In this document: positions 3,196 through 63,558 of the stretch, one piece after another
Numbering within the stretch: the first letter of the stretch is position 1
Layout: every line of letters begins with the position of its first letter
Assembly (NCBI GenBank): GCA_964532425.1
Contig: CAZHIA010000003.1
Coordinates: 117,365-181,364, forward strand
Length of the DNA stretch: 64,000 nt
From: an uncultured Candidatus Saccharibacteria bacterium
GTDB lineage: Bacteria > Patescibacteriota > Doudnabacteria > UBA920
Direction: 5' to 3'
Position numbers and translations under genes: made by a program
Notes under the pieces: model-generated
Seen by the model: the letters and a program-made list of their open reading frames with translations, nothing else
Told to the model about the DNA's origin: nothing
Databases searched by the model: none

Positions 3196-3221
3196 GTAGG
3201 GGCGGATACCATCCGCCCTCC
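3196..3221. repeat. REP-like palindromic unit (gtaggggcggataccatccgccctcc) immediately upstream of the RAYT gene.
   Basis: GTAGGG + inner palindrome GGCGGATACCATCCGCC. Same family as 11528-11558, 50480-50514 and others. Confidence 0.7.
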
Positions 3222-3234
3222 AGTGTTTTGAAAA

Positions 3235-3759
3235 ATGTCTAATTCTCGAAAACAAAATCGTCTTCATTGCTATGATTACTCTCAACCGGGGTTCTATTTT
3301 GTAACTGTGTGCACACAAGGTAGGATTTGCTGTTTAGGAGAGATCATAAATGGAAAAATGAATTTGAGTGAAAACGGAAAAATTGTTGAGGAGTGCTGGC
3401 TCGGCATTCCACTTCATTACGAGAATGTGAGCATTGATTCGGCGCATATTGTCATGCCCAATCACTTGCATGGAATAATCATAATAGAACCTGTAGGGGC
3501 GGTTACTAACCGCCCTAGGAACCGGGCGGATGATATCCGCCCCTACAATAACACCAATCTTTCTGCAGTGGTGGGTTCATTCAAAAAAGCAGCATCCAAG
3601 CTGATCCATGCTGAATATACAGCATTTGATTGGCAAAAGTCTTTTTATGACCACGTCATCCGCAAAGATGAATCACTCGATAAAATTCGCGAATATATTC
3701 GCAACAACCCATTAAAATGGGAATTGGACAGAAACAATCCTTCCAATATCTGGATGTAG
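3235..3759 (+). CDS. REP-associated tyrosine transposase (RAYT), IS200/IS605-like Y1 transposase.
   Basis: HuH motif HIVMPNHLHGII and Tyr motif DWQKSFYDHVIRKDE. A REP-like pair lies in frame between the two motifs. Confidence 0.8.
   Translation: MSNSRKQNRLHCYDYSQPGFYFVTVCTQGRICCLGEIINGKMNLSENGKIVEECWLGIPLHYENVSIDSAHIVMPNHLHGIIIIEPVGAVTNRPRNRADDIRPYNNTNLSAVVGSFKKAASKLIHAEYTAFDWQKSFYDHVIRKDESLDKIREYIRNNPLKWELDRNNPSNIWM
3491..3546. repeat. Two REP-like units lying in frame inside the RAYT coding sequence.
   Basis: ctgtaggggcggttactaaccgccctag and gggcggatgatatccgcccctac are translated as ...EPVGAVTNRPRNRADDIRPY... Confidence 0.7.
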
Positions 3760-3842
3760 CGCAGGCCCGTGGCCTGCTATTTTATTATTCTAAAACAAAA
3801 TTAAAAAATGGACACGCGAATCAAATTCGCGTGCCCTGTTGC

Positions 3843-17258: not shown

Positions 17259-17333
17259 TGGGGTGTAGCCAAGCGGTAAGGCAAGCGGCTCTGAACCGCT
17301 CATTCCTAGGTTCGAATCCTAGCACCCCAGCCA
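17259..17333 (+). tRNA. tRNA-Gln (anticodon CUG), 75 nt, with an encoded CCA.
   Basis: Cloverleaf with a 7-bp acceptor stem UGGGGUG/CACCCCA and an anticodon loop CUCUGAA. It is near-identical in layout to E. coli tRNA-Gln (GCCAAGCGGUAAGGC D-arm, GGUUCGAAUCC T-arm). Confidence 0.9.
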
Positions 17334-31938: not shown

Positions 31939-32325
31939 ATGGACTCTTCTGGACAGAAACAACAAAACACGGGAGATCGTCCGTTTGCGGTCATCGTACT
32001 GCTCGCCATTGCCTGCATAGCTGCGCTGTGGTGGTTTTTGACTGACCTTCACCAAACCTACCGGATTGTCCGGCTGCACGAAACCATAGGCTCAAGGGCC
32101 CAACACCTCACTCCGTCTGACATCCAACCCTGGATGACCTTTGAATACGTCAATAGGGTCTTCAAACTGCCGCCTGAATACCTCAAGGCCCGCCTGAGCA
32201 TAAAAGACCGGCACTATCCCCGCCTACAGATCAACCATTACGCAAACACAAACCGGCTCGACGTACACCAGGCCATTCAAAGCGTACGCACCGCAGTCGA
32301 AGAGTACCAATCAATAAAAAAATAG
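31939..32325 (+). CDS. Hypothetical membrane-anchored protein.
   Basis: Single N-terminal TM helix. Confidence 0.5.
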   Translation: MDSSGQKQQNTGDRPFAVIVLLAIACIAALWWFLTDLHQTYRIVRLHETIGSRAQHLTPSDIQPWMTFEYVNRVFKLPPEYLKARLSIKDRHYPRLQINHYANTNRLDVHQAIQSVRTAVEEYQSIKK

Positions 32326-32339
32326 AAAATTTAGGCATG

Positions 32340-32415
32340 GTATCATAATCTTTTTATTTTTCTATTTTCTATTTTTTTATCTGGTTTCTATCTTTTTATC
32401 TTTCTATCATTATCG
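32340..32415. repeat. A/T-rich 7-bp-periodic tandem repeats (ttttcta ttttcta ttttttt atctggt ttctatc tttttat ctttcta).
   Basis: Seen in the sequence. Related in composition to 58505-58572. Confidence 0.55.
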
Positions 32416-35409: not shown

Positions 35410-36156
35410 ATGAAGATTCTTCGCCTTACCATGGGCATGCCGGCGACGGTAGAAATTCGCGATACAGATGGAGCACGTGCAGACGCAGCCATCGGCAAAG
35501 TATTTGAATATTTCTCCGAAATAGACCAGCGGTTCAGCACTTACAAACCGGACAGCGAGATTAGCCGTATCAACCGCGGAGAACTCGAATGGGCAGACAT
35601 CAGTCCGGAAACGAAGGATATTCTTGCCCGGTCGCAGCAGACCAAGGAAGAAACGGCTGGTTACTTTAATATCCGGCGTCCGGACGGCTCTTTGGATCCT
35701 TCCGGCTTGGTAAAAGGCTGGGCTATTTGGCAAGCAGCCAAGCTGCTTGAGAATCTCGGGTTCCAACAGTTCATTGTCGACATCGGCGGAGACATTCAGG
35801 CCAAATCCCTTACCGCCGGTAGCTGGAAAATTGGCGTCCGCAATCCGTTCAATCGCGAACAAAACGTGAAGATTCTCACCCTCGGTAACGAAGGAATCGC
35901 TACGTCCGGCACTGCTATCCGCGGGCAACACATTTATAATCCTCACGAGCCAAAACAGCCCATTACCGACATTGCCAGCTTGACCGTAGTCGGCCCGAAC
36001 GTCTACGAGGCCGACCGATTTGCCACCGCCGCTTTTGCCATGGGCGCGGACGGAATCCGGTTTATCGAATCCGTTCCGGGCCTGGAAGCGTATATGATCG
36101 ACAAGGACGGCATAGCGACGATGACAACGGGGTTCGGGAAATACGTCCAAGAATAA
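35410..36156 (+). CDS. apbE: FAD:protein FMN transferase (ApbE family).
   Basis: ApbE signature blocks MPATVEI, SRINRGE, DPSGLVKGWA and IGGDI. The upstream in-frame ATG at 35380 is an alternative start. Confidence 0.85.
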   Translation: MKILRLTMGMPATVEIRDTDGARADAAIGKVFEYFSEIDQRFSTYKPDSEISRINRGELEWADISPETKDILARSQQTKEETAGYFNIRRPDGSLDPSGLVKGWAIWQAAKLLENLGFQQFIVDIGGDIQAKSLTAGSWKIGVRNPFNREQNVKILTLGNEGIATSGTAIRGQHIYNPHEPKQPITDIASLTVVGPNVYEADRFATAAFAMGADGIRFIESVPGLEAYMIDKDGIATMTTGFGKYVQE

Positions 36157-36268
36157 CAAATATCAAATCTCAAATAACCAATCAATAACAAATCTTTAAA
36201 TTTCAAATTCAGGGAATTGTCATTAAATATTCATTTGAAATTTGATATTTGATATTTGAAATTCATTT
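36157..36268. repeat. Inverted heptamer-array element: tatcaaa-type 7-mers (left) and tttgata/tttgaaa 7-mers (right) in the same 7-bp phase.
   Basis: caaatat caaatct caaataa ccaatca ... tttgaaa tttgata tttgata tttgaaa; the right units are the reverse complement of the left units. Confidence 0.65.
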
Positions 36269-37830: not shown

Positions 37831-37958
37831 ACACAACATTTAACCATTAACAATTAACATTTGACTGTAGTCGCCTCATCGGCGACCGCCGATAGGGTGG
37901 GAGGAGACCCTTGGTCTTCCCTATCCGGTCAAATGTCACATGTCAAAGGTCAAAGGTA
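37831..37958. repeat. Inverted heptamer-array element: ttaacaa/ttaacat 7-mers, a 60-bp spacer with a hairpin, then gtcaaat gtcacat gtcaaag gtcaaag.
   Basis: Same architecture as 57771-57837 and 63495-63558. Confidence 0.6.
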
Positions 37959-43472: not shown

Positions 43473-44801
43473 TTACTGCTGCTTAACCGGCGTCAGCAGC
43501 TGCATACGCTTGGCCGCGTCGGCCTTGCCGAGTTTGGCGTAGAGTTTGGCGGCTTCGGCGTATTCTTTGCCCTGCTTTGCCCGCTCCGCCGCTTTCTCAA
43601 CCGCTTGGCGAATGCGCAGTTCGACTGCCTGCTTACCCAGTCCCTGCGCCTCGAGCCACCGCTGTGCCCCGTCCAAAATTTCCTGCTGGTACGCTGGGAA
43701 AACGGTTTTACCCGAGGCTTCGGAAAACTCGCCATAGTGATAGATCTGCAGATAGTGCCCGGCGGCCCTGCGGCTGCACGCTTGCATACCGGCTGGATCG
43801 TTCATGGCCTTGTACACCGCGTATGCTTTGTCATACGCCTCATCCATGAGACCGACCAGGGATGGCCCCTCGCTTTCATCACAGTGGTGATGGGTGATGG
43901 TTTGGTCCACTGACCGTAGCGTCCAAAAGCGGGTTTCTTCCCGGTTCCCGAGCGCCTGGTACAATTTGACCAAATTATTGACCCGGCCGTAAATGTCACT
44001 CGCACAATAATACGGACTCGGGTAATCATCATTCTGCAGGTACCGTTTTGTAAGGTCAAGCTTGTCGTCATGCACCACACGGTACTTGAGCTTGGAGATG
44101 AGACCTTCTAGCAGTGGCTGATAGATTGGGTCATGATTGCTCTTTTCCCAAAGATCTATCGTATGGTTGACCGCAGCGTTTTCCTGATGGTCATACGAAC
44201 CACGACGCATCAGAATAGCCAACCCAGTCTTTACATCCTCGAGGATCTCAGGGTGCTTGACCGCGAAATCACATAGTGTGTCGTATGCGGCAGCAACGTC
44301 CGGCTCCTGGCGATAGGCAACCTGATGGCCACGCCTGGAGTCTTCCTGCTCCCGTTGATACTCGGCCCAGTCTTCCAATGTTTCGTGGGCCCTTTGATAG
44401 AGAGCCTTTTCCTCAGCAGCTTCCCGCTCGGCTTGACGGACCTTTTCCCGTGCTTCGATCTCCGCAGTTGAAGGTGCCTCCACCTCGGCAGTAACCGGGA
44501 AAGTTTGGGCAGTTGGCTCCTGCTTATGACACGCTGACAGCAAGACAACGGCGGCAAGCAGACACGTTGTGAATACGCTGCGCAACCACCCCTTCAGCGA
44601 AGCCTTCAACAGATCATAGGCCATTCCGCCAAAAAAGGATTTGCACATCTGCATGAAAGCCCGTCGGCGCGTAGTATGATCAGCACTGGCAAGGAATTTC
44701 GGCCAGTCCCAATGATCATATCCAAGCTTCACCGCGATATGCGTGTAGACGCAAAAAAGGTATGCCGCAACAAACACCAAAAACCAAACATTATTAACCA
44801 C
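43473..44801 (-). CDS. Hypothetical membrane/lipoprotein-like protein (about 440 aa) with an acidic coiled-coil region.
   Basis: SD AGGAGG before a GTG start; TM helix plus an LLSAC lipobox-like segment. Confidence 0.45.
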   Translation of the reverse strand: MVNNVWFLVFVAAYLFCVYTHIAVKLGYDHWDWPKFLASADHTTRRRAFMQMCKSFFGGMAYDLLKASLKGWLRSVFTTCLLAAVVLLSACHKQEPTAQTFPVTAEVEAPSTAEIEAREKVRQAEREAAEEKALYQRAHETLEDWAEYQREQEDSRRGHQVAYRQEPDVAAAYDTLCDFAVKHPEILEDVKTGLAILMRRGSYDHQENAAVNHTIDLWEKSNHDPIYQPLLEGLISKLKYRVVHDDKLDLTKRYLQNDDYPSPYYCASDIYGRVNNLVKLYQALGNREETRFWTLRSVDQTITHHHCDESEGPSLVGLMDEAYDKAYAVYKAMNDPAGMQACSRRAAGHYLQIYHYGEFSEASGKTVFPAYQQEILDGAQRWLEAQGLGKQAVELRIRQAVEKAAERAKQGKEYAEAAKLYAKLGKADAAKRMQLLTPVKQQ

Positions 44802-44989
44802 AGTATCCTCCTGAGGGTTGTGATAAGCCGTATCTCGCGCGCAAACCAAAGATAGATGGTATGCGCAATTTCACGAACGGTTCACCAAACGATTTTTTTG
44901 AATCACTTGGCGGATGATTCACAAAATACCTCTTATTAAAGCACAATTTATACAATTTGTCAACAGCTAAAAATATGCATATAAAAAGG

Positions 44990-45632: not shown

Positions 45633-46784
45633 TTAAGCTATGATTCCCCCGCCCACGCATATCTTGCCATCGTATAAGACCAAGCTCTGGCCGGACGCGA
45701 TAGACTTTTGGGGAGTTTTGAAATGAACCAGGTACGTACCGCCATCTTTTTGTTCGATCGTGAGCGGGACTAAATCACCCTGATGACGGAAGCGGCCTGC
45801 CAGCTGCCAGCTTTTAGCTTCTAGCTTATAGGCTATAGCTTCAGGCTGCGCAATCCAGTTCAAAGAATGTAAGGTAATATCCAGGACTTGCAGCGCTTTG
45901 TCGTCCGGGTCATTGGTCACGTACAGGGTGTTGTCATTCAGGTCCTTGCGCACGACAAAATACGGCCCGCTGGCACCAACCTTAATACCCTGACGTTGGC
46001 CAATGGTATAGTTATGAAGGCCTTCATGCTGACCGATGGCATTACCATGCTGGTCGATAATCGGCCCCGGCTTGGGTTTGAGCTTTTGTTCCAAAAAATC
46101 CTTCAGGCGAATCTTACCGACAAAGCACAGCCCCATGCTTTCCTGGCGACTTGCGTTCGGCAATCCGATCTTTGCCGCCAGCTTTTTCACTTCGGCTTTC
46201 TTCATCTCGCCAATCGGAAACAGCAGATGCGGTAACTGTTCGGGCTTGATGTTGTAAATGAAATAGGTCTGATCTTTGAATTCGTCAACGCTACGCTCAA
46301 GTTGAAAATGCAAAGTTAAAAATTCAAAATTACGTGGTGTGTTATCACTTTTAACTTTTAACTTTTCACTTTTCACTATCCTTGCATAATGCCCGGTCGC
46401 CAAATAGTCAAACCCATGCTCCATGGCCCAGTTATAGAGCAGCTTGAACTTGATCTCCTTATTGCACATGACATCCGGATTCGGCGTACGCCCGGCTTCG
46501 TACTCGCGAAAAAAATACTCCATCACCGTGTCCTGGTACTGCCTTTCGAAATCGAGCGTGTAGAGCGGAATCTTCAAAAACGCGGCTACGCGCAGCGCTT
46601 CCTGCCGGTCAGCCAGCCAAGGGCACTCACTCTTTAAAAGACCTTCGGTCAAAGACCAGTTTTTCATAAAAGCTGCTTCAACTTCGTATCCAGCCCGAAT
46701 GAGCAGGTATGCCGAAACAGCAGAATCAATTCCGCCGGAAAGGGCGACGAGCACCTTATTTTTTTGGCCGCTCTTGCGTTTCAT
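45633..46784 (-). CDS. mnmA: tRNA-specific 2-thiouridylase MnmA.
   Basis: PP-loop VLVALSGGIDSAV, ATGHYAR, and C-terminal GKICVGGGII. Contains an in-frame insert of about 16 aa that coincides with the heptamer-array element at 46301-46377. Confidence 0.9.
   Translation of the reverse strand: MKRKSGQKNKVLVALSGGIDSAVSAYLLIRAGYEVEAAFMKNWSLTEGLLKSECPWLADRQEALRVAAFLKIPLYTLDFERQYQDTVMEYFFREYEAGRTPNPDVMCNKEIKFKLLYNWAMEHGFDYLATGHYARIVKSEKLKVKSDNTPRNFEFLTLHFQLERSVDEFKDQTYFIYNIKPEQLPHLLFPIGEMKKAEVKKLAAKIGLPNASRQESMGLCFVGKIRLKDFLEQKLKPKPGPIIDQHGNAIGQHEGLHNYTIGQRQGIKVGASGPYFVVRKDLNDNTLYVTNDPDDKALQVLDITLHSLNWIAQPEAIAYKLEAKSWQLAGRFRHQGDLVPLTIEQKDGGTYLVHFKTPQKSIASGQSLVLYDGKICVGGGIIA
46301..46377. repeat. 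Inverted heptamer-array element lying in frame inside mnmA (gttgaaa atgcaaa gttaaaa attcaaa ... actttta actttta acttttc acttttc).
   Basis: 4x perfect/near-perfect 7-mers. Encodes the extra segment ...KSEKLKVKSDNTPRNFEFLTLHFQ... which is absent from E. coli MnmA at this position. Confidence 0.65.
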
Positions 46785-48346: not shown

Positions 48347-48394
48347 GGTTTTCTGATTCCAATTTTATTTAATTTTAATTAATCTTACTTAATT

Positions 48395-49072
48395 TTACTT
48401 ATTCAAGTATTGTTCTATCTGCTTCTTCATCCCGTCCAGCGCCTGATTCTGCAGTTCGTGACCATTAAAGTAGAAGGTCGGTGTACCGCGGACACCTAAG
48501 GCTATGGACTGGTTATACTGTTGCTGGAGGTACGGCTTGTACTTGTCGGAGTTCATGTCCTGTTCGAATTTTGCAATATTCGAAACACCGACGGTCTGGG
48601 CATACTGGATAAACGCCTGGCGCGGATCGATCATGTTCTCCCAAGCTTGCTGGTTGGAGAACAATTGATCATGCATTTCCCAAAACTTACCCTGCTCCCC
48701 TGCCGCTTCAGCCGCATAAGAAGCAATGACGGAATTCTTATGAATCTGGAATATTGGGTAGTAACGGAATACTAGCACCGTATCCGGCTCCTGGTCGACA
48801 AGCTGCTTAATTACCGGATTGAATGCCGCGCAGGCTGGACACTGAAAGTCCTCGTAGGTAACCAGAACATTCTTAGCCTGGGGATTACCGAGCACATGAT
48901 CGGCCTTTGCATCAACCGGCGGCACGGTTTGGATAGGCTGCAGGTCTTTCGGATCATCCAGCTTGGTCGTAAAACTGACCTGCTGATTGTTTTGCGGAGA
49001 CAGGCTATAGAGATAGTATCCCAAACCTACGGCCACAAGGACGATCACGATTATAGTGATGGTTTTTTTCAT
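48395..49072 (-). CDS. DsbA-like thioredoxin-fold thiol:disulfide oxidoreductase, membrane-anchored.
   Basis: N-terminal TM helix; FQCPACAAF CxxC active site. Confidence 0.7.
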   Translation of the reverse strand: MKKTITIIVIVLVAVGLGYYLYSLSPQNNQQVSFTTKLDDPKDLQPIQTVPPVDAKADHVLGNPQAKNVLVTYEDFQCPACAAFNPVIKQLVDQEPDTVLVFRYYPIFQIHKNSVIASYAAEAAGEQGKFWEMHDQLFSNQQAWENMIDPRQAFIQYAQTVGVSNIAKFEQDMNSDKYKPYLQQQYNQSIALGVRGTPTFYFNGHELQNQALDGMKKQIEQYLNK

Positions 49073-50479: not shown

Positions 50480-50514
50480 CCCCGTAGGGGACGGTCGCGA
50501 CCGTCCCCTACAAG
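50480..50514. repeat. REP-like unit cccgtaggggacggtcgcgaccgtcccctacaagg.
   Basis: GTAGGG-GACGGTCGCGACCGTC-CCCTAC. Confidence 0.75.
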
Positions 50515-53925: not shown

Positions 53926-54000
53926 ATTTATAAATTTCTTTCAACCTCAGTTCTAACTAAATTTCGCGGGGTGGCCCGCCGAGGGAATAACTGCGGATAA

Positions 54001-54140
54001 AATTCGAATATCGAAATACTAAATCCGAAACAAACTCTAAATTATAAACTCTAAATAACAAACTTTCTGCTTCGAATTTGAAATATTAGAATTTGGAATT
54101 TGTTTCGAATTTCGGGATTCGAATTTAGAATTTATTTTCG
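54001..54140. repeat. A/T-rich 7-bp-periodic repeat region (aattcga atatcga ... aacaaac tctaaat ... cgaattt cgggatt cgaattt agaattt).
   Basis: 7-bp phase is maintained over about 140 bp; the left units (aattcga) are inverted relative to the right units (cgaattt). Confidence 0.5.
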
Positions 54141-57744: not shown

Positions 57745-57770
57745 AATTTGAATCTTAATGCACAAGAACA

Positions 57771-57837
57771 TTTGACATTTGACCTGTGACATGTGACCGA
57801 ATGCAGTCGGTCAATTGTTAAATGTCAATTGTCAATT
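57771..57837. repeat. Inverted heptamer-array element: tttgaca tttgacc tgtgaca tgtgacc, an 11-bp spacer, then gtcaatt gttaaat gtcaatt gtcaatt.
   Basis: Seen in the sequence; the left block is 29/33 identical to 63495-63527. Confidence 0.7.
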
Positions 57838-57839
57838 GT

Positions 57840-58493: not shown

Positions 58494-58504
58494 ATAAAAT
58501 TTAA

Positions 58505-58572
58505 AAATAGAAAGATAGAAAAATAGAAAATTAATTGCACTTAATTTTTAAATCTTTTTATTTTCTATTTTT
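58505..58572. repeat. Inverted heptamer-array element: agaaaga tagaaaa atagaaa, a spacer, then cttttta ttttcta ttttttt.
   Basis: Seen directly in the sequence. Confidence 0.6.
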
Positions 58573-59778
58573 TTATTGCGTCCCCCTGCCTACCGCTTCG
58601 CTGATATTCTTATATCCGTCTTGCTCGAGTAATCTGACCAGTCCGCGATTGATATCACTGATCGCTTCGGGACCTTCGAAGATCATGCCGGTGATCAACT
58701 GAATCAGACTCGCGCCGAGCTTGATCTTTCTATAGGCATCCTCAGCCGTAAACACGCCGCCGCACCCGATGATCACGAATTCTCCGCGCGTCTTTTGATA
58801 CAGATAGGCAATTTGCCGGTCAGACAACGCCTGTACTACCTTGCCCGACATGCTGCCACTTTGAGGCAAATCGGATTCCTTAATGTTCGGGTTAGACCGG
58901 TCTTTGGCCAGATTGGTACTGATAAACCCCGTGATTTTATGCTTGCGCGCAACTTCGATCATGCCATCCAAAACTTGTTCAGGCATCTCGGCCGGCATTT
59001 TGATGAAGACTGGTTTTTGGTTCGGTACCTGGCGTAAAGCTGTCATAAGGCGGTCGAACTTCTCCGGGGTAGTGAACGGCTCGCCGCCAAAGGCATTCGG
59101 ACAGGAAATATTGACCGTAAAATAATCGCCGGTGTTCGCATCCACGAAGGTCTTGTACGCCTTCACGTAATCCGCAATACCAGCTTGTTCCTCGACCGTG
59201 TCGGCACTGTTAGTCTTGGCAATAGATATCCCGATCGGTATTCGACTGACGGTGTAAGGACGGGCCTGCGCCTTACCGGCGGGCAGGTCGACCCGTTCAG
59301 AAGCGGAACGGTCTCGACCGTTCCCTACAGACTGTAGTCTCTTCACGATTGCTTTACATCCGTCATTTTTAAGTCCGTAATACACGACCAGGCTCCCCGA
59401 CCGCTTCAACCGCCACAGTCGCGGCTTGGGATTGCCCGCACACGGGTTGCCAGTAACCGAGCCAATCTCTTCAAATCCAAATCCCACTTCGGGCAGGATC
59501 TGCGTCAAATGCGCGTCCTTGTCAAATCCGGCCGCAAGGCCTATGGGATTTTCAAAACGGATGCCGGCAACGGTTTGGGCCAACATAGGACTATCATAAC
59601 CGAACATGACTCTCGTCAATCCGCGGGTTGCTGCCGTTTTGCCGAGCATGGAGCCGACGAATGTCATACGGTCATGCACCGCTTCCGGATCGGCAAGAAA
59701 AAACAACGGCTTCAGCACGCCTTTATACGCAACCCGGATAACTGCATTGCGCGCAATAATAAGAGAATCTTTAAGCAT
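58573..59778 (-). CDS. pyrD: Dihydroorotate dehydrogenase (quinone), class 2.
   Basis: N-terminal membrane-association helix; GNPKPRLWRL, IGSVT and GGV blocks; contains an in-frame REP-like insert. Confidence 0.85.
   Translation of the reverse strand: MLKDSLIIARNAVIRVAYKGVLKPLFFLADPEAVHDRMTFVGSMLGKTAATRGLTRVMFGYDSPMLAQTVAGIRFENPIGLAAGFDKDAHLTQILPEVGFGFEEIGSVTGNPCAGNPKPRLWRLKRSGSLVVYYGLKNDGCKAIVKRLQSVGNGRDRSASERVDLPAGKAQARPYTVSRIPIGISIAKTNSADTVEEQAGIADYVKAYKTFVDANTGDYFTVNISCPNAFGGEPFTTPEKFDRLMTALRQVPNQKPVFIKMPAEMPEQVLDGMIEVARKHKITGFISTNLAKDRSNPNIKESDLPQSGSMSGKVVQALSDRQIAYLYQKTRGEFVIIGCGGVFTAEDAYRKIKLGASLIQLITGMIFEGPEAISDINRGLVRLLEQDGYKNISEAVGRGTQ
59290..59330. repeat. REP-like unit (ggaacggtctcgaccgttccctacag) lying in frame inside pyrD.
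   Basis: Translated on the minus strand as ...QSVGNGRDRSASERVDLP... Confidence 0.65.
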
Positions 59779-60688
59779 TGGCTCGTTTGGATTTAATAAA
59801 GAAGAAAGCGACGATAACGAATGTGATGACCGGAGAAGTCCACTCCGGTATTTCGGCACCGAAACTGTCGGCGAGCATAATAAGACCGAGCGCGAGAATG
59901 GAATACATGGCCCCGTTCTTCAAAAATATGTACTGTTTGATGCGGTCGACATTATGCACGGTCAGCTGCCGGACCACGAGCGCCCCCAGGCTGTTCCCCA
60001 CCAAAATGAGTGGTACCGACAATGTAAAAGCAAACGCGCCGAGCACGCCATCAACAGAAAAGGTCGTGTCAATTATTTCAAGATACAAGATTTTGCTCAA
60101 ATCAGACAAACTACCGCTTTTGTCACGCAGCAAGGTCTCTTCGCTCTTGGCAGCGTTCTCTTTAAAACCGTGGGTAATAAAAAATGCGGTCGAGCCGGCT
60201 ACGGCTGCCAGGGCCATGTACGGATTCACGGCAAGCGCCTTCCAGACAATGCCGAGCAACAGGACAGAGATGACCGCAAAAAACCACACGCCTTGCCGTG
60301 CGATAAAACGTTCGCCTGGCAAGCCAAATTCCTTTTCTTCCAAAAATAACCAGTGAAAAAACAGAAAGATCAAAAAGACTCCGCCGGCCAGCAGAAGCAG
60401 CGGGGCCGAACGGTGCACCGCCTCCAGTACTTTCGGGTCGGAACTGAAGGTGGCGGTCAGTGCCCCAATAGGACCGAGAGACGGCGTTGCCAGCCAGACA
60501 ATGAGCCACGGCAGCAGACCTCTGACCACGAACACGGCAAACAGCATTCCCCACAGCAAAAACCACTTGCGGGCTTTCTGGCCCATGCCGGACAGGACTT
60601 CCGCGTTAATGATCGCGTTATCGATGCTGGACACCGTTTCAAACAGGCAAAGCCCGGCAACGGTAATGGCAATGGTAATGAAAGACAT
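59771..60688 (-). CDS. TerC-family / DUF475 integral membrane protein.
   Basis: ETVSSIDNAII and DTTFSVDGVLGAFA blocks; multiple TM helices. Confidence 0.7.
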   Translation of the reverse strand: MSFITIAITVAGLCLFETVSSIDNAIINAEVLSGMGQKARKWFLLWGMLFAVFVVRGLLPWLIVWLATPSLGPIGALTATFSSDPKVLEAVHRSAPLLLLAGGVFLIFLFFHWLFLEEKEFGLPGERFIARQGVWFFAVISVLLLGIVWKALAVNPYMALAAVAGSTAFFITHGFKENAAKSEETLLRDKSGSLSDLSKILYLEIIDTTFSVDGVLGAFAFTLSVPLILVGNSLGALVVRQLTVHNVDRIKQYIFLKNGAMYSILALGLIMLADSFGAEIPEWTSPVITFVIVAFFFIKSKRANA

Positions 60689-63484: not shown

Positions 63485-63494
63485 AATTAGGAAC

Positions 63495-63558
63495 ATTTGA
63501 CAATTGACCTTTAACATGGGACCGGTTGCAGAAAGTCAAAAGTCAAATGTTACATGTT
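63495..63558. repeat. Inverted heptamer-array element: tttgaca attgacc tttaaca tgggacc, an 8-bp spacer, then aaagtca aaagtca aatgtta catgtta.
   Basis: Seen in the sequence; homologous to 57771-57837. Confidence 0.7.

What the first reader, a model, noticed from the sequence alone, without database searches (positions are those of the whole stretch)
46301..46377. Heptamer-array element inserted in frame inside mnmA
Seen in the sequence: gttgaaa atgcaaa gttaaaa attcaaa ... actttta actttta acttttc acttttc lies inside the MnmA ORF and is translated as ...KSEKLKVKSDNTPRNFEFLTLHFQ... Established knowledge: E. coli MnmA has a shorter segment, about 16 aa less, between the ATGHY block and the KDQSYFLY block. 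Inference: a repeat element of the family above has inserted into a surface loop of an essential tRNA-modification enzyme and is tolerated as a peptide insertion. This supports the view that these arrays are (or were) mobile.
Basis: partly seen in the sequence, partly recalled or inferred. Interest (0 to 1): 0.6.

Follow-up and report, generated by a model that had tools for sequence, protein, structure and literature searches.

The report
Translated heptamer-repeat hairpin inside mnmA
A 78-base hairpin-forming stretch made of 7-base repeats sits in frame in a surface loop of the tRNA-modifying enzyme MnmA of a tiny-genome (CPR) bacterium. In related species the same loop holds other repeat elements or nothing, much like the "protein-coding palindromes" known from Rickettsia.

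Summary
Confirmed. Window 46300-46377 is a 78-bp quasi-palindrome: 29-nt arms, 79% complementary, 20-nt spacer, built from period-7 units. It lies in frame in an intact mnmA (45633-46784, minus strand).

It adds 16 aa relative to solved MnmA structures and 21 aa relative to empty-site orthologs of the same Doudnabacteria-like CPR clade. It sits at the tip of a beta-hairpin that AlphaFold models as a low-confidence coil. Catalytic residues are intact.

In 32 orthologs with DNA, this codon position holds heptamer-array hairpins of at least 4 unit classes, direct heptamer arrays, GTAG-type REP palindromes, other inserts, or nothing. Two other MnmA loops are similar hot spots. The window's gene also carries a second, direct heptamer array (45809-45841).

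The window's element aligns in register with those of seven other species and has no second copy in the 64 kb. It is therefore an old, inherited insert kept open by stop-avoiding unit mosaics, not a recent transposition.

Mobility of the class is supported only indirectly:
- dispersed related hairpins, including one 29/29-nt match in another species;
- a RAYT-like gene with REPs in the window;
- in-frame palindromes in pyrD and in the RAYT-like gene.

The closest analogue is the Rickettsia palindromic element. Verdict: new variant of a known kind.

The parts
45633..46784 (-). mnmA (tRNA 2-thiouridine(34) synthase): intact 383-aa ORF that hosts the element
   Evidence: ORF listed. E = 4e-81 to solved MnmA structures. 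Fold match TM 0.73-0.80 to 2hma/2der. PP-loop S16-S21, D104, C107 and C220 are invariant in 65 orthologs.
46349..46377 (-). 5' arm on the coding strand: heptamer units GTGAAAA GTGAAAA GTTAAAA GTTAAAA (a fifth, unpaired unit GTGATAA extends to 46342). Encodes VKSEKLKVKS(D).
   Evidence: period 7, 95% matches. The unit mosaic avoids the in-frame stops that a homogeneous array would create.
46329..46348 (-). Spacer (loop) between the two arms. Encodes about DNTPRN. Not conserved among orthologs.
   Evidence: 20 nt between arms; alignment of 8 orthologs.
46300..46328 (-). 3' arm on the coding strand: units of TTTNNAC type (TTTTGAA TTTTTAA CTTTGCA TTTTCAA C). Encodes FEFLTLHFQL.
   Evidence: 79% complementary to the other arm; hairpin fold.
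45809..45841 (-). Second in-frame heptamer array in the same gene: direct, no inverted partner, AGCTTNT x4.7 on + (NAAGCTA on the coding strand). Residues about 315-326, EAIAYKLEAKSW. This loop is 7 aa longer than in solved MnmA.
   Evidence: array; gaps of 2+5 residues versus 2hma; pLDDT < 50 at 318-320; the same loop carries heptamer arrays in most orthologs; L166 and L081 share the AAGCTA unit.
37836..37957 (.). Context: intergenic heptamer-array hairpin of the TTGAC/GTCAA family, with a GTAG-type REP hairpin (37867-37886) nested in its loop
   Evidence: Its 3' arm is 29/29 identical to L007 1282-1310 in another species, in a different gene context.
57768..57839 (.). Context: intergenic heptamer-array hairpin, TTGAC/GTCAA family
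   Evidence: 88-92% identity to the 63492 element, 90% to the 37926-37954 arm.
63492..63551 (.). Context: intergenic heptamer-array hairpin, TTGAC/GTCAA family. It is the only other place in the window resembling the mnmA unit pattern (1 mismatch).
36151..36264 (.). Context: intergenic hairpin of inverted heptamer arrays (AAATNTC / GANATTT)
   Evidence: A related array lies at L166 468-492.
54000..54137 (.). Context: intergenic hairpin of inverted heptamer arrays (AAATTCG / CGAATTT)
58498..58577 (.). Context: intergenic hairpin of 7-8-nt arrays (AAAATAG / CTATTTT), with a second family member at 32312-32408
3235..3759 (+). Context: RAYT-like (REP-associated tyrosine transposase-like) ORF. It is flanked by GTAG-type REP hairpins (3196-3218, 3756-3777) and itself carries an in-frame REP doublet (3493-3546). 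Candidate trans-acting mobiliser of hairpin DNA.
   Evidence: NF047646 E = 1.5e-12, 47.6 bits, below the curated cut-off of 80. PF01797 22.9 bits against a cut-off of 23. HLH (HUH-type) motif and SFYDHVIR tyrosine. REPs.
59253..59330 (-). Context: in-frame GTAG-type REP palindrome insert (about 25 aa) inside pyrD (dihydroorotate dehydrogenase, 58573-59859)
   Evidence: The alignment to 8ofw breaks into two blocks, leaving 30 query residues opposite 5.

Best explanation
SHOWN. The segment is a quasi-palindromic pair of inverted heptamer arrays that lies in frame in mnmA. It is translated as a poorly ordered extension of about 21-24 aa at the tip of a beta-hairpin in the catalytic domain. The catalytic residues are untouched.

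SHOWN. The insert is shared, in register, with at least seven other Doudnabacteria-like (CPR) species.

INFERRED from that. It entered (or arose in) a common ancestor, has been inherited vertically, and is not a recent transposition.

SHOWN. The arrays are mosaics of unit variants (GTG/GTT/GTGAT...) placed so that no frame of the 7-nt period yields a stop. Arrays are homogeneous only where the unit is stop-free in all three frames.

INFERRED from that. Repeat homogenisation (slippage or conversion) is opposed by selection to keep MnmA open.

SHOWN. The same codon position is a hot spot. In other species it holds heptamer hairpins of other unit classes, direct heptamer arrays, GTAG-type REP palindromes, other inserts, or nothing. 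Two further loops of MnmA behave the same way.

INFERRED, on origin. Hairpin-forming selfish DNA of this clade (heptamer-array hairpins and RAYT-associated REPs) repeatedly lands in, or nests into, the few loops of housekeeping proteins that tolerate extra residues. It is then remodelled locally by slippage. The peptide itself is most likely a tolerated passenger, not an adaptation.
For: - Structure of the element.
- Insertion: 16 aa more than solved structures. Empty-site orthologs read HYAQIK(D/N/K)GKLLRS, with a classical DG/NG turn.
- Loop location: coil with pLDDT < 50 at residues 144-157, between strands 135-139 and 159-163. Fold match to MnmA. Invariant catalytic residues.
- Shared ancestry: eight inserts align in register; element identity is 58-78% against 64-67% for the rest of the gene. 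The GTNNAAA x3 pattern is found in the fetched loci only at this mnmA site, plus one distant intergenic array.
- Stop avoidance.
- Hot spot and turnover. Empty-site P0097 is the nearest relative (83% core identity) of insert-bearing P0002. P0012/P0023's next-nearest relative, P0091 (86%), carries an unrelated insert.
- Arm classes: 5' and 3' arms match their own class (permutation p = 0.0002).
- Clade-wide process: period-7 runs at 28 per 100 kb in Doudna-like loci against 3 per 100 kb in other loci. Flanks of empty-site loci have 0 in 25 kb, against 11.6 per 100 kb for occupied ones.
- Dispersed hairpin families, including a 29/29-nt match between species.
- RAYT-like gene with flanking REPs; 13 GTAG-REPs against 1.1 in shuffles.
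- In-frame REP inserts in pyrD and in the RAYT-like gene.
- GTAG-type palindromes occupy MnmA loops in L007 and L082.
Against: - No second copy of the mnmA-type element in the 64 kb, and no recognisable target-site duplication or conserved termini beyond GT...AC.
- Its arm order is opposite to that of the intergenic TTGAC/GTCAA hairpins.
- Every element has its own unit, which fits local slippage as well as transposition.
- The NJ tree of the orthologs is star-like, so one ancestral insertion with losses cannot be separated rigorously from repeated insertion of one family.
- The low-complexity skeleton inflates alignment identity.
- There is no fine-scale compensatory covariation within the GTNNAAA subgroup (p = 0.31) and no consistent strand bias in folding. 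Nothing therefore shows that the hairpin itself is under selection.
- The low pLDDT may reflect the hypervariable alignment columns, not true disorder.
- The RAYT-like ORF scores below NCBIfam's cut-off, and its REP core (GTAGGGGCGG...) is absent from the mnmA element.
- The empty site of L168 contains one GTAAAAA, a possible seed for in-situ expansion.
Confidence: 0.6

Rival explanations
1. In-situ origin with no mobile element. A short A-rich codon stretch at the hairpin turn expanded by replication slippage of a 7-nt unit. A fold-back (template-switch) event then copied the array in inverted orientation. The different unit classes in different species are independent local expansions in a clade whose replication or repair machinery favours heptamer slippage.
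For: - Each element has its own unit, and the mnmA unit has no second copy in the window.
- Direct-only arrays occur at the same site (L004, L085).
- At the third loop, arrays replace roughly the ancestral length, only +3 aa in many orthologs.
- The empty site of L168 reads GTAAAAA-ATGGT, a single proto-unit.
- Heptamers are the commonest long simple-sequence repeat in many bacteria, and polymerase slippage was proposed as the cause (Mrazek 2007, as summarised in PMC4679880).
- Array density is a lineage property.
Against: - It does not explain why non-heptamer palindromes (GTAG REPs, the 'RHSE'-type element) occupy the same codon in other species.
- It does not explain the dispersed, near-identical copies of other heptamer hairpins within and between genomes.
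- A fold-back should give initially perfect arms around a minimal loop. Here the spacers are 13-30 nt and unrelated to each other.
Confidence: 0.27
2. Adaptive feature. Either the Lys/Ser-rich then Phe/Leu-rich peptide is a selected extension of the beta-hairpin (for example an extra tRNA- or partner-binding arm). Or the mRNA/DNA hairpin is a selected regulatory structure inside mnmA (translation pausing, mRNA stability, or heptamer slippage giving phase-variable frameshifts).
For: - About 85% of 120 orthologs keep an insert of at least 13 aa at this site.
- The WIN-L161 5' arm is the most conserved 36-nt stretch of the gene, at 93%.
- 17 of 28 inserts fold with z < -2.
- A one-unit slip of a heptamer array would shift the frame, which is the basis of known phase variation.
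Against: - The peptide sequence, length and even the element class are not conserved.
- Empty-site orthologs exist.
- There is no compensatory covariation and no sense-strand bias.
- K/E/Q, the codons read by MnmA-modified tRNAs, are not enriched; only Ser is, at 2.8x, as expected from the AGT skeleton.
- pLDDT is low.
- The window's array has only 2+2 identical units, which is poor for slippage.
- No Rfam family matches.
Confidence: 0.1
3. Artefact: a chimeric or mis-assembled contig, or a pseudogene, so that the repeat is not really translated.
For: The source is a metagenome-assembled genome, and repeats are error-prone in assembly. The exact protein could not be found in the contig index.
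Against: - The ORF is uninterrupted with all catalytic motifs.
- The identical protein is recorded from NCBI and Logan.
- Homologous inserts occur at the same codon in seven independent assemblies with conserved synteny: dsbA-like gene, mnmA, pyrophosphatase.
Confidence: 0.02

Closest known systems
Rickettsia palindromic elements (RPEs; Ogata et al. 2000 and 2002, as summarised in PMC10969869)
   Same: Palindromic, hairpin-forming repeat DNA inserted in frame in unrelated housekeeping genes and translated as a peptide insert compatible with the fold. Present or absent among orthologs. Found in a reduced-genome bacterium. Several genes are affected here too (mnmA, pyrD, RAYT-like ORF).
   Different: RPEs are about 100-150 bp, belong to families with a conserved sequence and peptide, and have tens of copies per genome. 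The mnmA element is 78 bp, is built from 7-nt units, has no second copy in the 64 kb, and its sequence class differs between species. The host phylum also differs (CPR/Patescibacteria, not Alphaproteobacteria).
REP/REPIN elements mobilised by RAYT (IS200-like Y1) transposases (PMC3116915)
   Same: Inverted doublets that fold into a hairpin in ssDNA. Clusters form by insertion into or next to existing elements. The window has a RAYT-like ORF flanked by GTAG-type REP hairpins and 13 such REPs. GTAG-type palindromes occupy the same MnmA loops in other species (L007, L082).
   Different: The mnmA element lacks the GTAG + GC-rich REP core found beside the RAYT-like gene. REPINs are by definition extragenic and highly conserved within a genome. 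The RAYT-like ORF scores below the family's curated threshold.
Tandem heptanucleotide repeats of bacteria: long simple-sequence repeats (Mrazek 2007), TAACTGA arrays of Beggiatoaceae, Cyanobacteria and Bacteroidetes (PMC4679880), and cyanobacterial STRR heptamers (my own knowledge)
   Same: 7-nt unit. Strong excess over other periods. Mostly intergenic and often next to start codons. Occasionally inside ORFs in the orientation that is free of stop codons, usually at the periphery of the protein.
   Different: Those are direct arrays dominated by one unit per genome. Here most elements are inverted pairs of arrays forming a hairpin, with many different units, and they sit in the middle of a conserved enzyme at a recurrent position.
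MITEs in general (PMC10969869)
   Same: Short, non-coding-capacity elements with inverted ends that can create in-frame fusions.
   Different: No target-site duplication, no related autonomous IS and no multi-copy family could be shown for the mnmA element.

Membership tests
MnmA (tRNA 2-thiouridine(34) synthase), the host gene | PP-loop SGGxDS, catalytic Asp/Cys/Cys (E. coli D99, C102, C199; PMC11784392), and the three-domain architecture | tested here: met
   S16-G17-G18-D20-S21, D104, C107 and C220 are invariant. Pfam PF03054/PF20259/PF20258. E = 4e-81 to solved MnmA structures. TM 0.73-0.80.
Protein-coding palindromes of the RPE kind | Hairpin-forming (palindromic) DNA segment | tested here: met
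   29-nt arms, 79% complementary. MFE -21.9 kcal/mol, z = -2.6.
Protein-coding palindromes of the RPE kind | Inserted in frame in a conserved gene that stays open; orthologs without the insert exist | tested here: met
   Intact ORF. 16 aa more than solved structures. Empty sites in L009, L087, L089, L168.
Protein-coding palindromes of the RPE kind | Many homologous copies dispersed in the same genome, with a conserved element sequence and peptide | tested here: not met
   No second copy in the 64-kb window. Only the window was available, so copies elsewhere in the genome are not excluded.
Protein-coding palindromes of the RPE kind | Insert lies on the protein surface, away from the active site | tested here: inconclusive
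   Tip of a beta-hairpin, coil, pLDDT < 50. The distance to tRNA or ATP in 2DER/2DEU could not be measured because no coordinates were available.
REPIN / RAYT system | A RAYT gene in the genome, flanked by its REPs | tested here: inconclusive
   ORF 3235-3759: NF047646 47.6 bits (cut-off 80), PF01797 22.9 bits (cut-off 23), HUH-type motif and Tyr present. GTAG REPs at 3196-3218 and 3756-3777.
REPIN / RAYT system | The element contains the same REP core as the one next to the RAYT, and is extragenic | tested here: not met
   The mnmA element has no GTAGGGGCGG-type core and is intragenic.
MITE | Terminal inverted repeats plus target-site duplication, and a related autonomous IS | tested here: not met
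   The arms are inverted repeats. No direct duplication flanks them when compared with empty sites. No matching IS was seen among the 43 window ORFs scanned (40 against Pfam, 3 against NCBIfam).
Heptanucleotide simple-sequence repeats (LSSR/STRR type) | Tandem 7-nt units (3 or more) with a genome-wide excess of period 7 | tested here: met
   TRF period 7, 4.4 copies, 95% matches. 12 period-7 runs against 0-3 for other periods. 28 against 3 per 100 kb in clade versus non-clade loci.
Heptanucleotide simple-sequence repeats (LSSR/STRR type) | One dominant unit per genome, in direct arrays | tested here: not met
   At least 6 different units in the window, most arranged as inverted pairs.

The most novel reading that the evidence does not exclude
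Heptamer-array hairpins are a previously undescribed class of small non-autonomous mobile DNA in Doudnabacteria-like CPR bacteria. Together with RAYT-associated REPs, they are targeted to pre-existing hairpin DNA (nested, hairpin-into-hairpin insertion on single-stranded DNA). This would create hereditary hot spots at a few beta-hairpin loops of housekeeping enzymes (three in MnmA, one in PyrD), where element classes replace one another over evolutionary time. If so, CPR would be a second, independent and much more diverse case of the 'protein-coding palindromes' so far regarded as peculiar to Rickettsia.
Probability: 0.22. Interest if true: 0.75.

Novelty: new variant of a known kind. Interest (0 to 1): 0.55.

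Why it matters
In-frame selfish palindromes in essential-type genes have been treated as a Rickettsia peculiarity. Here the same outcome appears in an ultra-small-genome CPR lineage, with a different kind of element (inverted heptamer arrays) and a striking recurrence. One codon position of MnmA holds at least five element classes across species.

This gives a natural experiment on which protein loops tolerate insertions, and on how repeat homogenisation is balanced against selection for an open frame. It may also bear on how hairpin DNA is targeted.

Practically, it warns annotators that length variation (352-469 aa) and odd low-complexity peptides in CPR orthologs are repeat-derived, and that such loops should be masked in phylogenies and structure predictions.

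Tried and rejected
1. RNA-only structure. Sense versus antisense folding of 15 orthologous inserts shows no consistent bias, so an mRNA-specific hairpin is not supported.
2. Compensatory covariation within the GTNNAAA subgroup. Cognate arms pair no better than non-cognate ones (p = 0.31).
3. Autoregulation through Lys/Glu/Gln codons read by MnmA-modified tRNAs. K is 1.4x, E 0.85x and Q 1.06x in inserts; only Ser is enriched, at 2.8x. Rejected.
4. Known RNA family. Rfam finds only a tRNA, at 17259-17330.
5. Phylogenetic mapping of insert types. The NJ tree of 120 orthologs is star-like and uninformative, so only nearest-neighbour identities were used.
6. The mnmA element as a copy of an intergenic family. 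No match beyond a 1-mismatch unit pattern at 63532.
7. Retrieving the source contig by exact protein look-up failed.
8. P0067 and P0094 had no retrievable DNA.
9. The Elhai 2008 and Ogata 2002 papers are not held, so they are cited only from memory or through reviews.
10. A literature search for heptamer hairpins in Patescibacteria found nothing relevant.
11. The solved-structure search with the RAYT-like ORF gave only spurious hits.
Full report
OBSERVATION. On the + strand, four units GTTGAAA ATGCAAA GTTAAAA ATTCAAA are followed by a 20-nt spacer and four units ACTTTTA ACTTTTA ACTTTTC ACTTTTC. The repeat finder reports arms 46300-46328 and 46349-46377, 29 nt long and 79% complementary. TRF reports a period-7 array of 4.4 copies with 95% matches at 46347-46377. 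The segment lies in a continuous 383-aa ORF on the minus strand (45633-46784) and is read as ...IVKSEKLKVKSDNTPRNFEFLTLHFQLERS....

The pattern exceeds chance. The arm pattern has no match in 100 shuffles. The sense strand folds at -21.9 kcal/mol with z = -2.6. Period-7 runs number 12 in the window, against 0-3 for periods 4-6 and 8-12.

THE HOST GENE. The ORF is MnmA. It matches solved MnmA structures at E = 4e-81, and its AlphaFold model matches 2hma and the E. coli MnmA-tRNA complexes 2der/2det/2deu with TM 0.73-0.80. The PP-loop and the residues equivalent to E. coli D99/C102/C199 (their role: PMC11784392) are invariant in 65 orthologs, as D104, C107 and C220.

The alignment to 2hma/9hlv has exactly 16 extra residues in the query between ATGHYAR and LxRxxD. 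In the model these residues form a coil with pLDDT < 50 (144-146, 148-157) between strands 135-139 and 159-163, which is the tip of a beta-hairpin.

The organism is a Patescibacteria (CPR) bacterium close to Candidatus Doudnabacteria, judging by the names of the best hits and loci.

WHAT ORTHOLOGS SHOW. The 120 best homologues are 57-72% identical and range from 352 to 469 aa. Almost all length variation falls in three loops: this one, one after residue about 243, and one at residues about 313-325.

I obtained DNA for 32 orthologs of the clade.
- Four have an empty site, reading HYAQ(I/V)K(D/N/K)G(K/Q)LLRS: L009, L087, L089, L168.
- 28 are occupied. Of these, 15 have lag-7 identity of at least 0.5 (other lags about 0.27), and 17 fold with z < -2.

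The occupants of this site are diverse:
- heptamer-array hairpins with a GTNNAAA/TTTNNAC skeleton: the window, L161, L162, L163, L164, L165, L167, L083;
- hairpins with other units: L081 GTGGGCA/CACTNNT, L091 AGGGTGT/CACCCTT, L005 AGTATTA/TAATACT, and also L166 and L095;
- direct-only arrays: L004, L085;
- GTAG-type palindromes: L007, L082;
- a long 'GCGTCATTCTGAGC...' palindrome: L001 and L084, with dG of -58 and -82;
- a GC-rich multi-hairpin: L006;
- inserts of unclear type.

Turnover is fast relative to the protein. The empty-site P0097 is the closest relative of insert-bearing P0002 (83% core identity). P0012/P0023's next-closest relative, P0091 (86%), carries an unrelated insert.

AGE OF THE WINDOW'S ELEMENT. 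The eight GTNNAAA-type inserts align in register, with the same start after the Ile codon and the same end before the Leu codon. Their identity to the window's element is 58-78%, against 64-67% for the rest of the gene. The 5' arm shared by the window and L161 is the most conserved 36-nt stretch of the whole gene, at 93%. Low complexity inflates these numbers.

Across 1.1 Mb of fetched loci, the GTNNAAA x3 pattern occurs only at this mnmA site, plus one intergenic array in a distant CPR locus. In the window it occurs only in mnmA, with a 1-mismatch hit at 63532. I therefore read the window's element as an old insert inherited with the gene. It is not a recent hop, and it is not a copy of the intergenic elements nearby.

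CONSTRAINTS ACTING ON IT. A 7-nt array is read in all three frames in turn. Homogeneous arrays of the consensus unit would create in-frame stops in 6 of 8 orthologs. In the window, for example, a third GTGAAAA unit gives AAG-TGA, and a second or fifth GTTAAAA unit gives AGT-TAA. The real arrays are mosaics that place each variant only where it is harmless. Units that are stop-free in all frames (GTCGAAA in L083, GTGGGCA in L081) form homogeneous arrays of 3-4 copies. This fits homogenisation by slippage or conversion, checked by selection for an open mnmA.

I found no evidence that the hairpin itself is selected:
- cognate arms pair no better than non-cognate arms within the subgroup (p = 0.31), although arms do match by class across classes (p = 0.0002);
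- sense and antisense strands fold equally well on average;
- no Rfam family matches.

The peptide is not conserved and is enriched only in Ser (2.8x), as expected from the AGT skeleton. It is not enriched in the Lys/Glu/Gln codons that depend on MnmA.

THE WIDER PHENOMENON. The window has at least six intergenic hairpins made of inverted heptamer arrays: 36151-36264, 37836-37957, 54000-54137, 57768-57839, 58498-58577 and 63492-63551. They lie in short spacers between co-directional genes.

Three of them (37836, 57768, 63492) are true homologues, with TTGAC/GTCAA units, 88-92% identity and similar loops. The 3' arm of one is 29/29 identical to an element in another species (L007 1282-1310), in a different gene context. 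The AAATAGA-type element has two copies.

Period-7 runs are ten times denser in Doudna-like loci than in the other loci fetched, 28 against 3 per 100 kb. They are absent from 25 kb flanking the four empty-site genes, against 11.6 per 100 kb for occupied ones. That is only suggestive (Poisson p about 0.05).

The window's mnmA also carries a second, direct heptamer array (45809-45841, AGCTTNT x4.7) in the third hot-spot loop. That loop is 7 aa longer than in 2hma, has low pLDDT, and holds heptamer arrays in most orthologs.

A SECOND CLASS OF HAIRPIN DNA. ORF 3235-3759 resembles REP-associated tyrosine transposases. It scores 47.6 bits against NF047646, below the cut-off of 80, and 22.9 bits against PF01797. 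It has an HLH motif and a C-terminal Tyr helix. It is flanked by GTAG + GC-rich hairpins, and a doublet of the same REP lies in frame inside it.

Thirteen such GTAG-REPs occur in the window, against 1.1 in shuffles. One is nested in the loop of the heptamer hairpin at 37836-37957. Another forms an in-frame insert of about 25 aa in pyrD. The same REP type (GTAGGGAACGGTC...) occupies the third MnmA loop in L007. [quoted passage not shown] That offers a rationale for hot spots, but I could not test it.

INTERPRETATION. The following is shown:
- an in-frame, translated, quasi-palindromic heptamer-array insert at a beta-hairpin tip of an otherwise intact MnmA;
- shared in register with seven species;
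- located at a site that is a clade-wide hot spot with fast turnover.

The following is inferred. Hairpin-forming selfish DNA repeatedly colonises the few permissive loops and is then remodelled by slippage under selection for an open frame. The peptide is a passenger.

The main rival is purely local origin by slippage plus fold-back. It explains the unit diversity and the direct-only arrays. It does not explain the non-heptamer palindromes at the same codon, nor the dispersed identical copies of other hairpins. Adaptive and artefact readings have little support.

COMPARISON WITH KNOWN SYSTEMS. The closest analogue is the Rickettsia palindromic element, with in-frame palindromes in housekeeping genes (PMC10969869). 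The present element differs in size, in its heptamer construction, in the absence of a demonstrated multi-copy family, and in host phylum.

It shares the 7-nt unit and the intergenic preference with the heptamer arrays of Beggiatoaceae and Cyanobacteria (PMC4679880). It differs from them in being an inverted pair with many unit types.

It shares hairpin architecture with REPINs but lacks their REP core and is intragenic.

I found no report of such elements in Patescibacteria in the held literature. I rate it a new variant of a known kind.

Noticed in passing
window 3196-3777: RAYT-like (REP-associated tyrosine transposase-like) ORF at 3235-3759. It is flanked by GTAG-type REP hairpins (3196-3218, 3756-3777) and has an inverted REP doublet (3493-3546) in frame inside it, encoding about PVGAVTNRPRNRADDIRPYN.
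   Followed up: partly
window 59253-59330 (inside pyrD, 58573-59859, minus strand): Dihydroorotate dehydrogenase carries an in-frame GTAG-type palindromic insert of about 25 aa (QSVGNGRDRSASERVDLPAGKAQARPYTVS). The alignment to 8ofw splits into two blocks around it.
   Followed up: partly
window 3196, 3493, 3524, 3756, 8727, 11532, 11628, 21782, 37867, 50484, 54764, 59305: Thirteen GTAG + GC-rich stem REP-like hairpins (12 positions listed; the palindrome at 50484-50511 scores on both strands), against 1.1 expected from shuffles. Sub-families are GTAGGGGCGG..CCGCCC (4 copies), GTAGGGAACGGTCGAGACCGTTCC (2 copies) and GTAGGGGACGGTCGCGACCGTCCCC.
   Followed up: partly
window 37929-37957 and L007 1282-1310: A 29-nt heptamer array (AAATGTCACATGTCAAAGGTCAAAGGT...) is identical in two species at non-homologous positions. 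In L007 it ends 8 nt before the start codon of an EamA-like gene, and its AAAGG may serve as a ribosome-binding site.
   Followed up: partly
window 37867-37927: The loop of the heptamer hairpin at 37836-37957 contains a 62-nt insert with a GTAG-type hairpin (GTAGTCGCCTCATCGGCGAC) and a second stem (GATAGGG...CCCTATC). This is nesting of one hairpin class inside the other.
   Followed up: no
L008, L011, L086 (mnmA site-1 inserts): These long inserts contain CCTGTGGATAACTTT (peptide PVDNF), twice in L086. TGTGGATAA is the reverse complement of the DnaA-box consensus TTATCCACA (my own knowledge).
   Followed up: no
orthologs P0044, P0045, P0053, P0057, P0067, P0107 and others; after query residue about 243 (KPGPII^D): A further hot spot in MnmA holds inserts of up to 48 aa. 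Peptides such as SLRG..(T)KQS..GIATS.SQSPALLAMT look like translations of another widespread palindromic repeat.
   Followed up: no
window 48361-48401: A 10-nt tandem array (AATTTTACTT x4.1) lies between the DsbA-like gene and the Nudix gene. In related genomes the corresponding spacer holds heptamer hairpins.
   Followed up: no
window 44768-44788: A period-7 run (CAACAAACACCAAAAACCAAA) lies inside the N-terminal, probably transmembrane, part of ORF 43473-44849 (no Pfam hit). It may be chance.
   Followed up: no
L102 6772-6790: A direct GTNNAAA array (GTCAAAA GTCCAAA GTGTAAA) lies just upstream of a gene in a distant CPR genome whose MnmA is only 42% identical. This shows that the unit type is not confined to mnmA.
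   Followed up: no
window 17259-17330: A tRNA gene; the only Rfam hit in the window.
   Followed up: no
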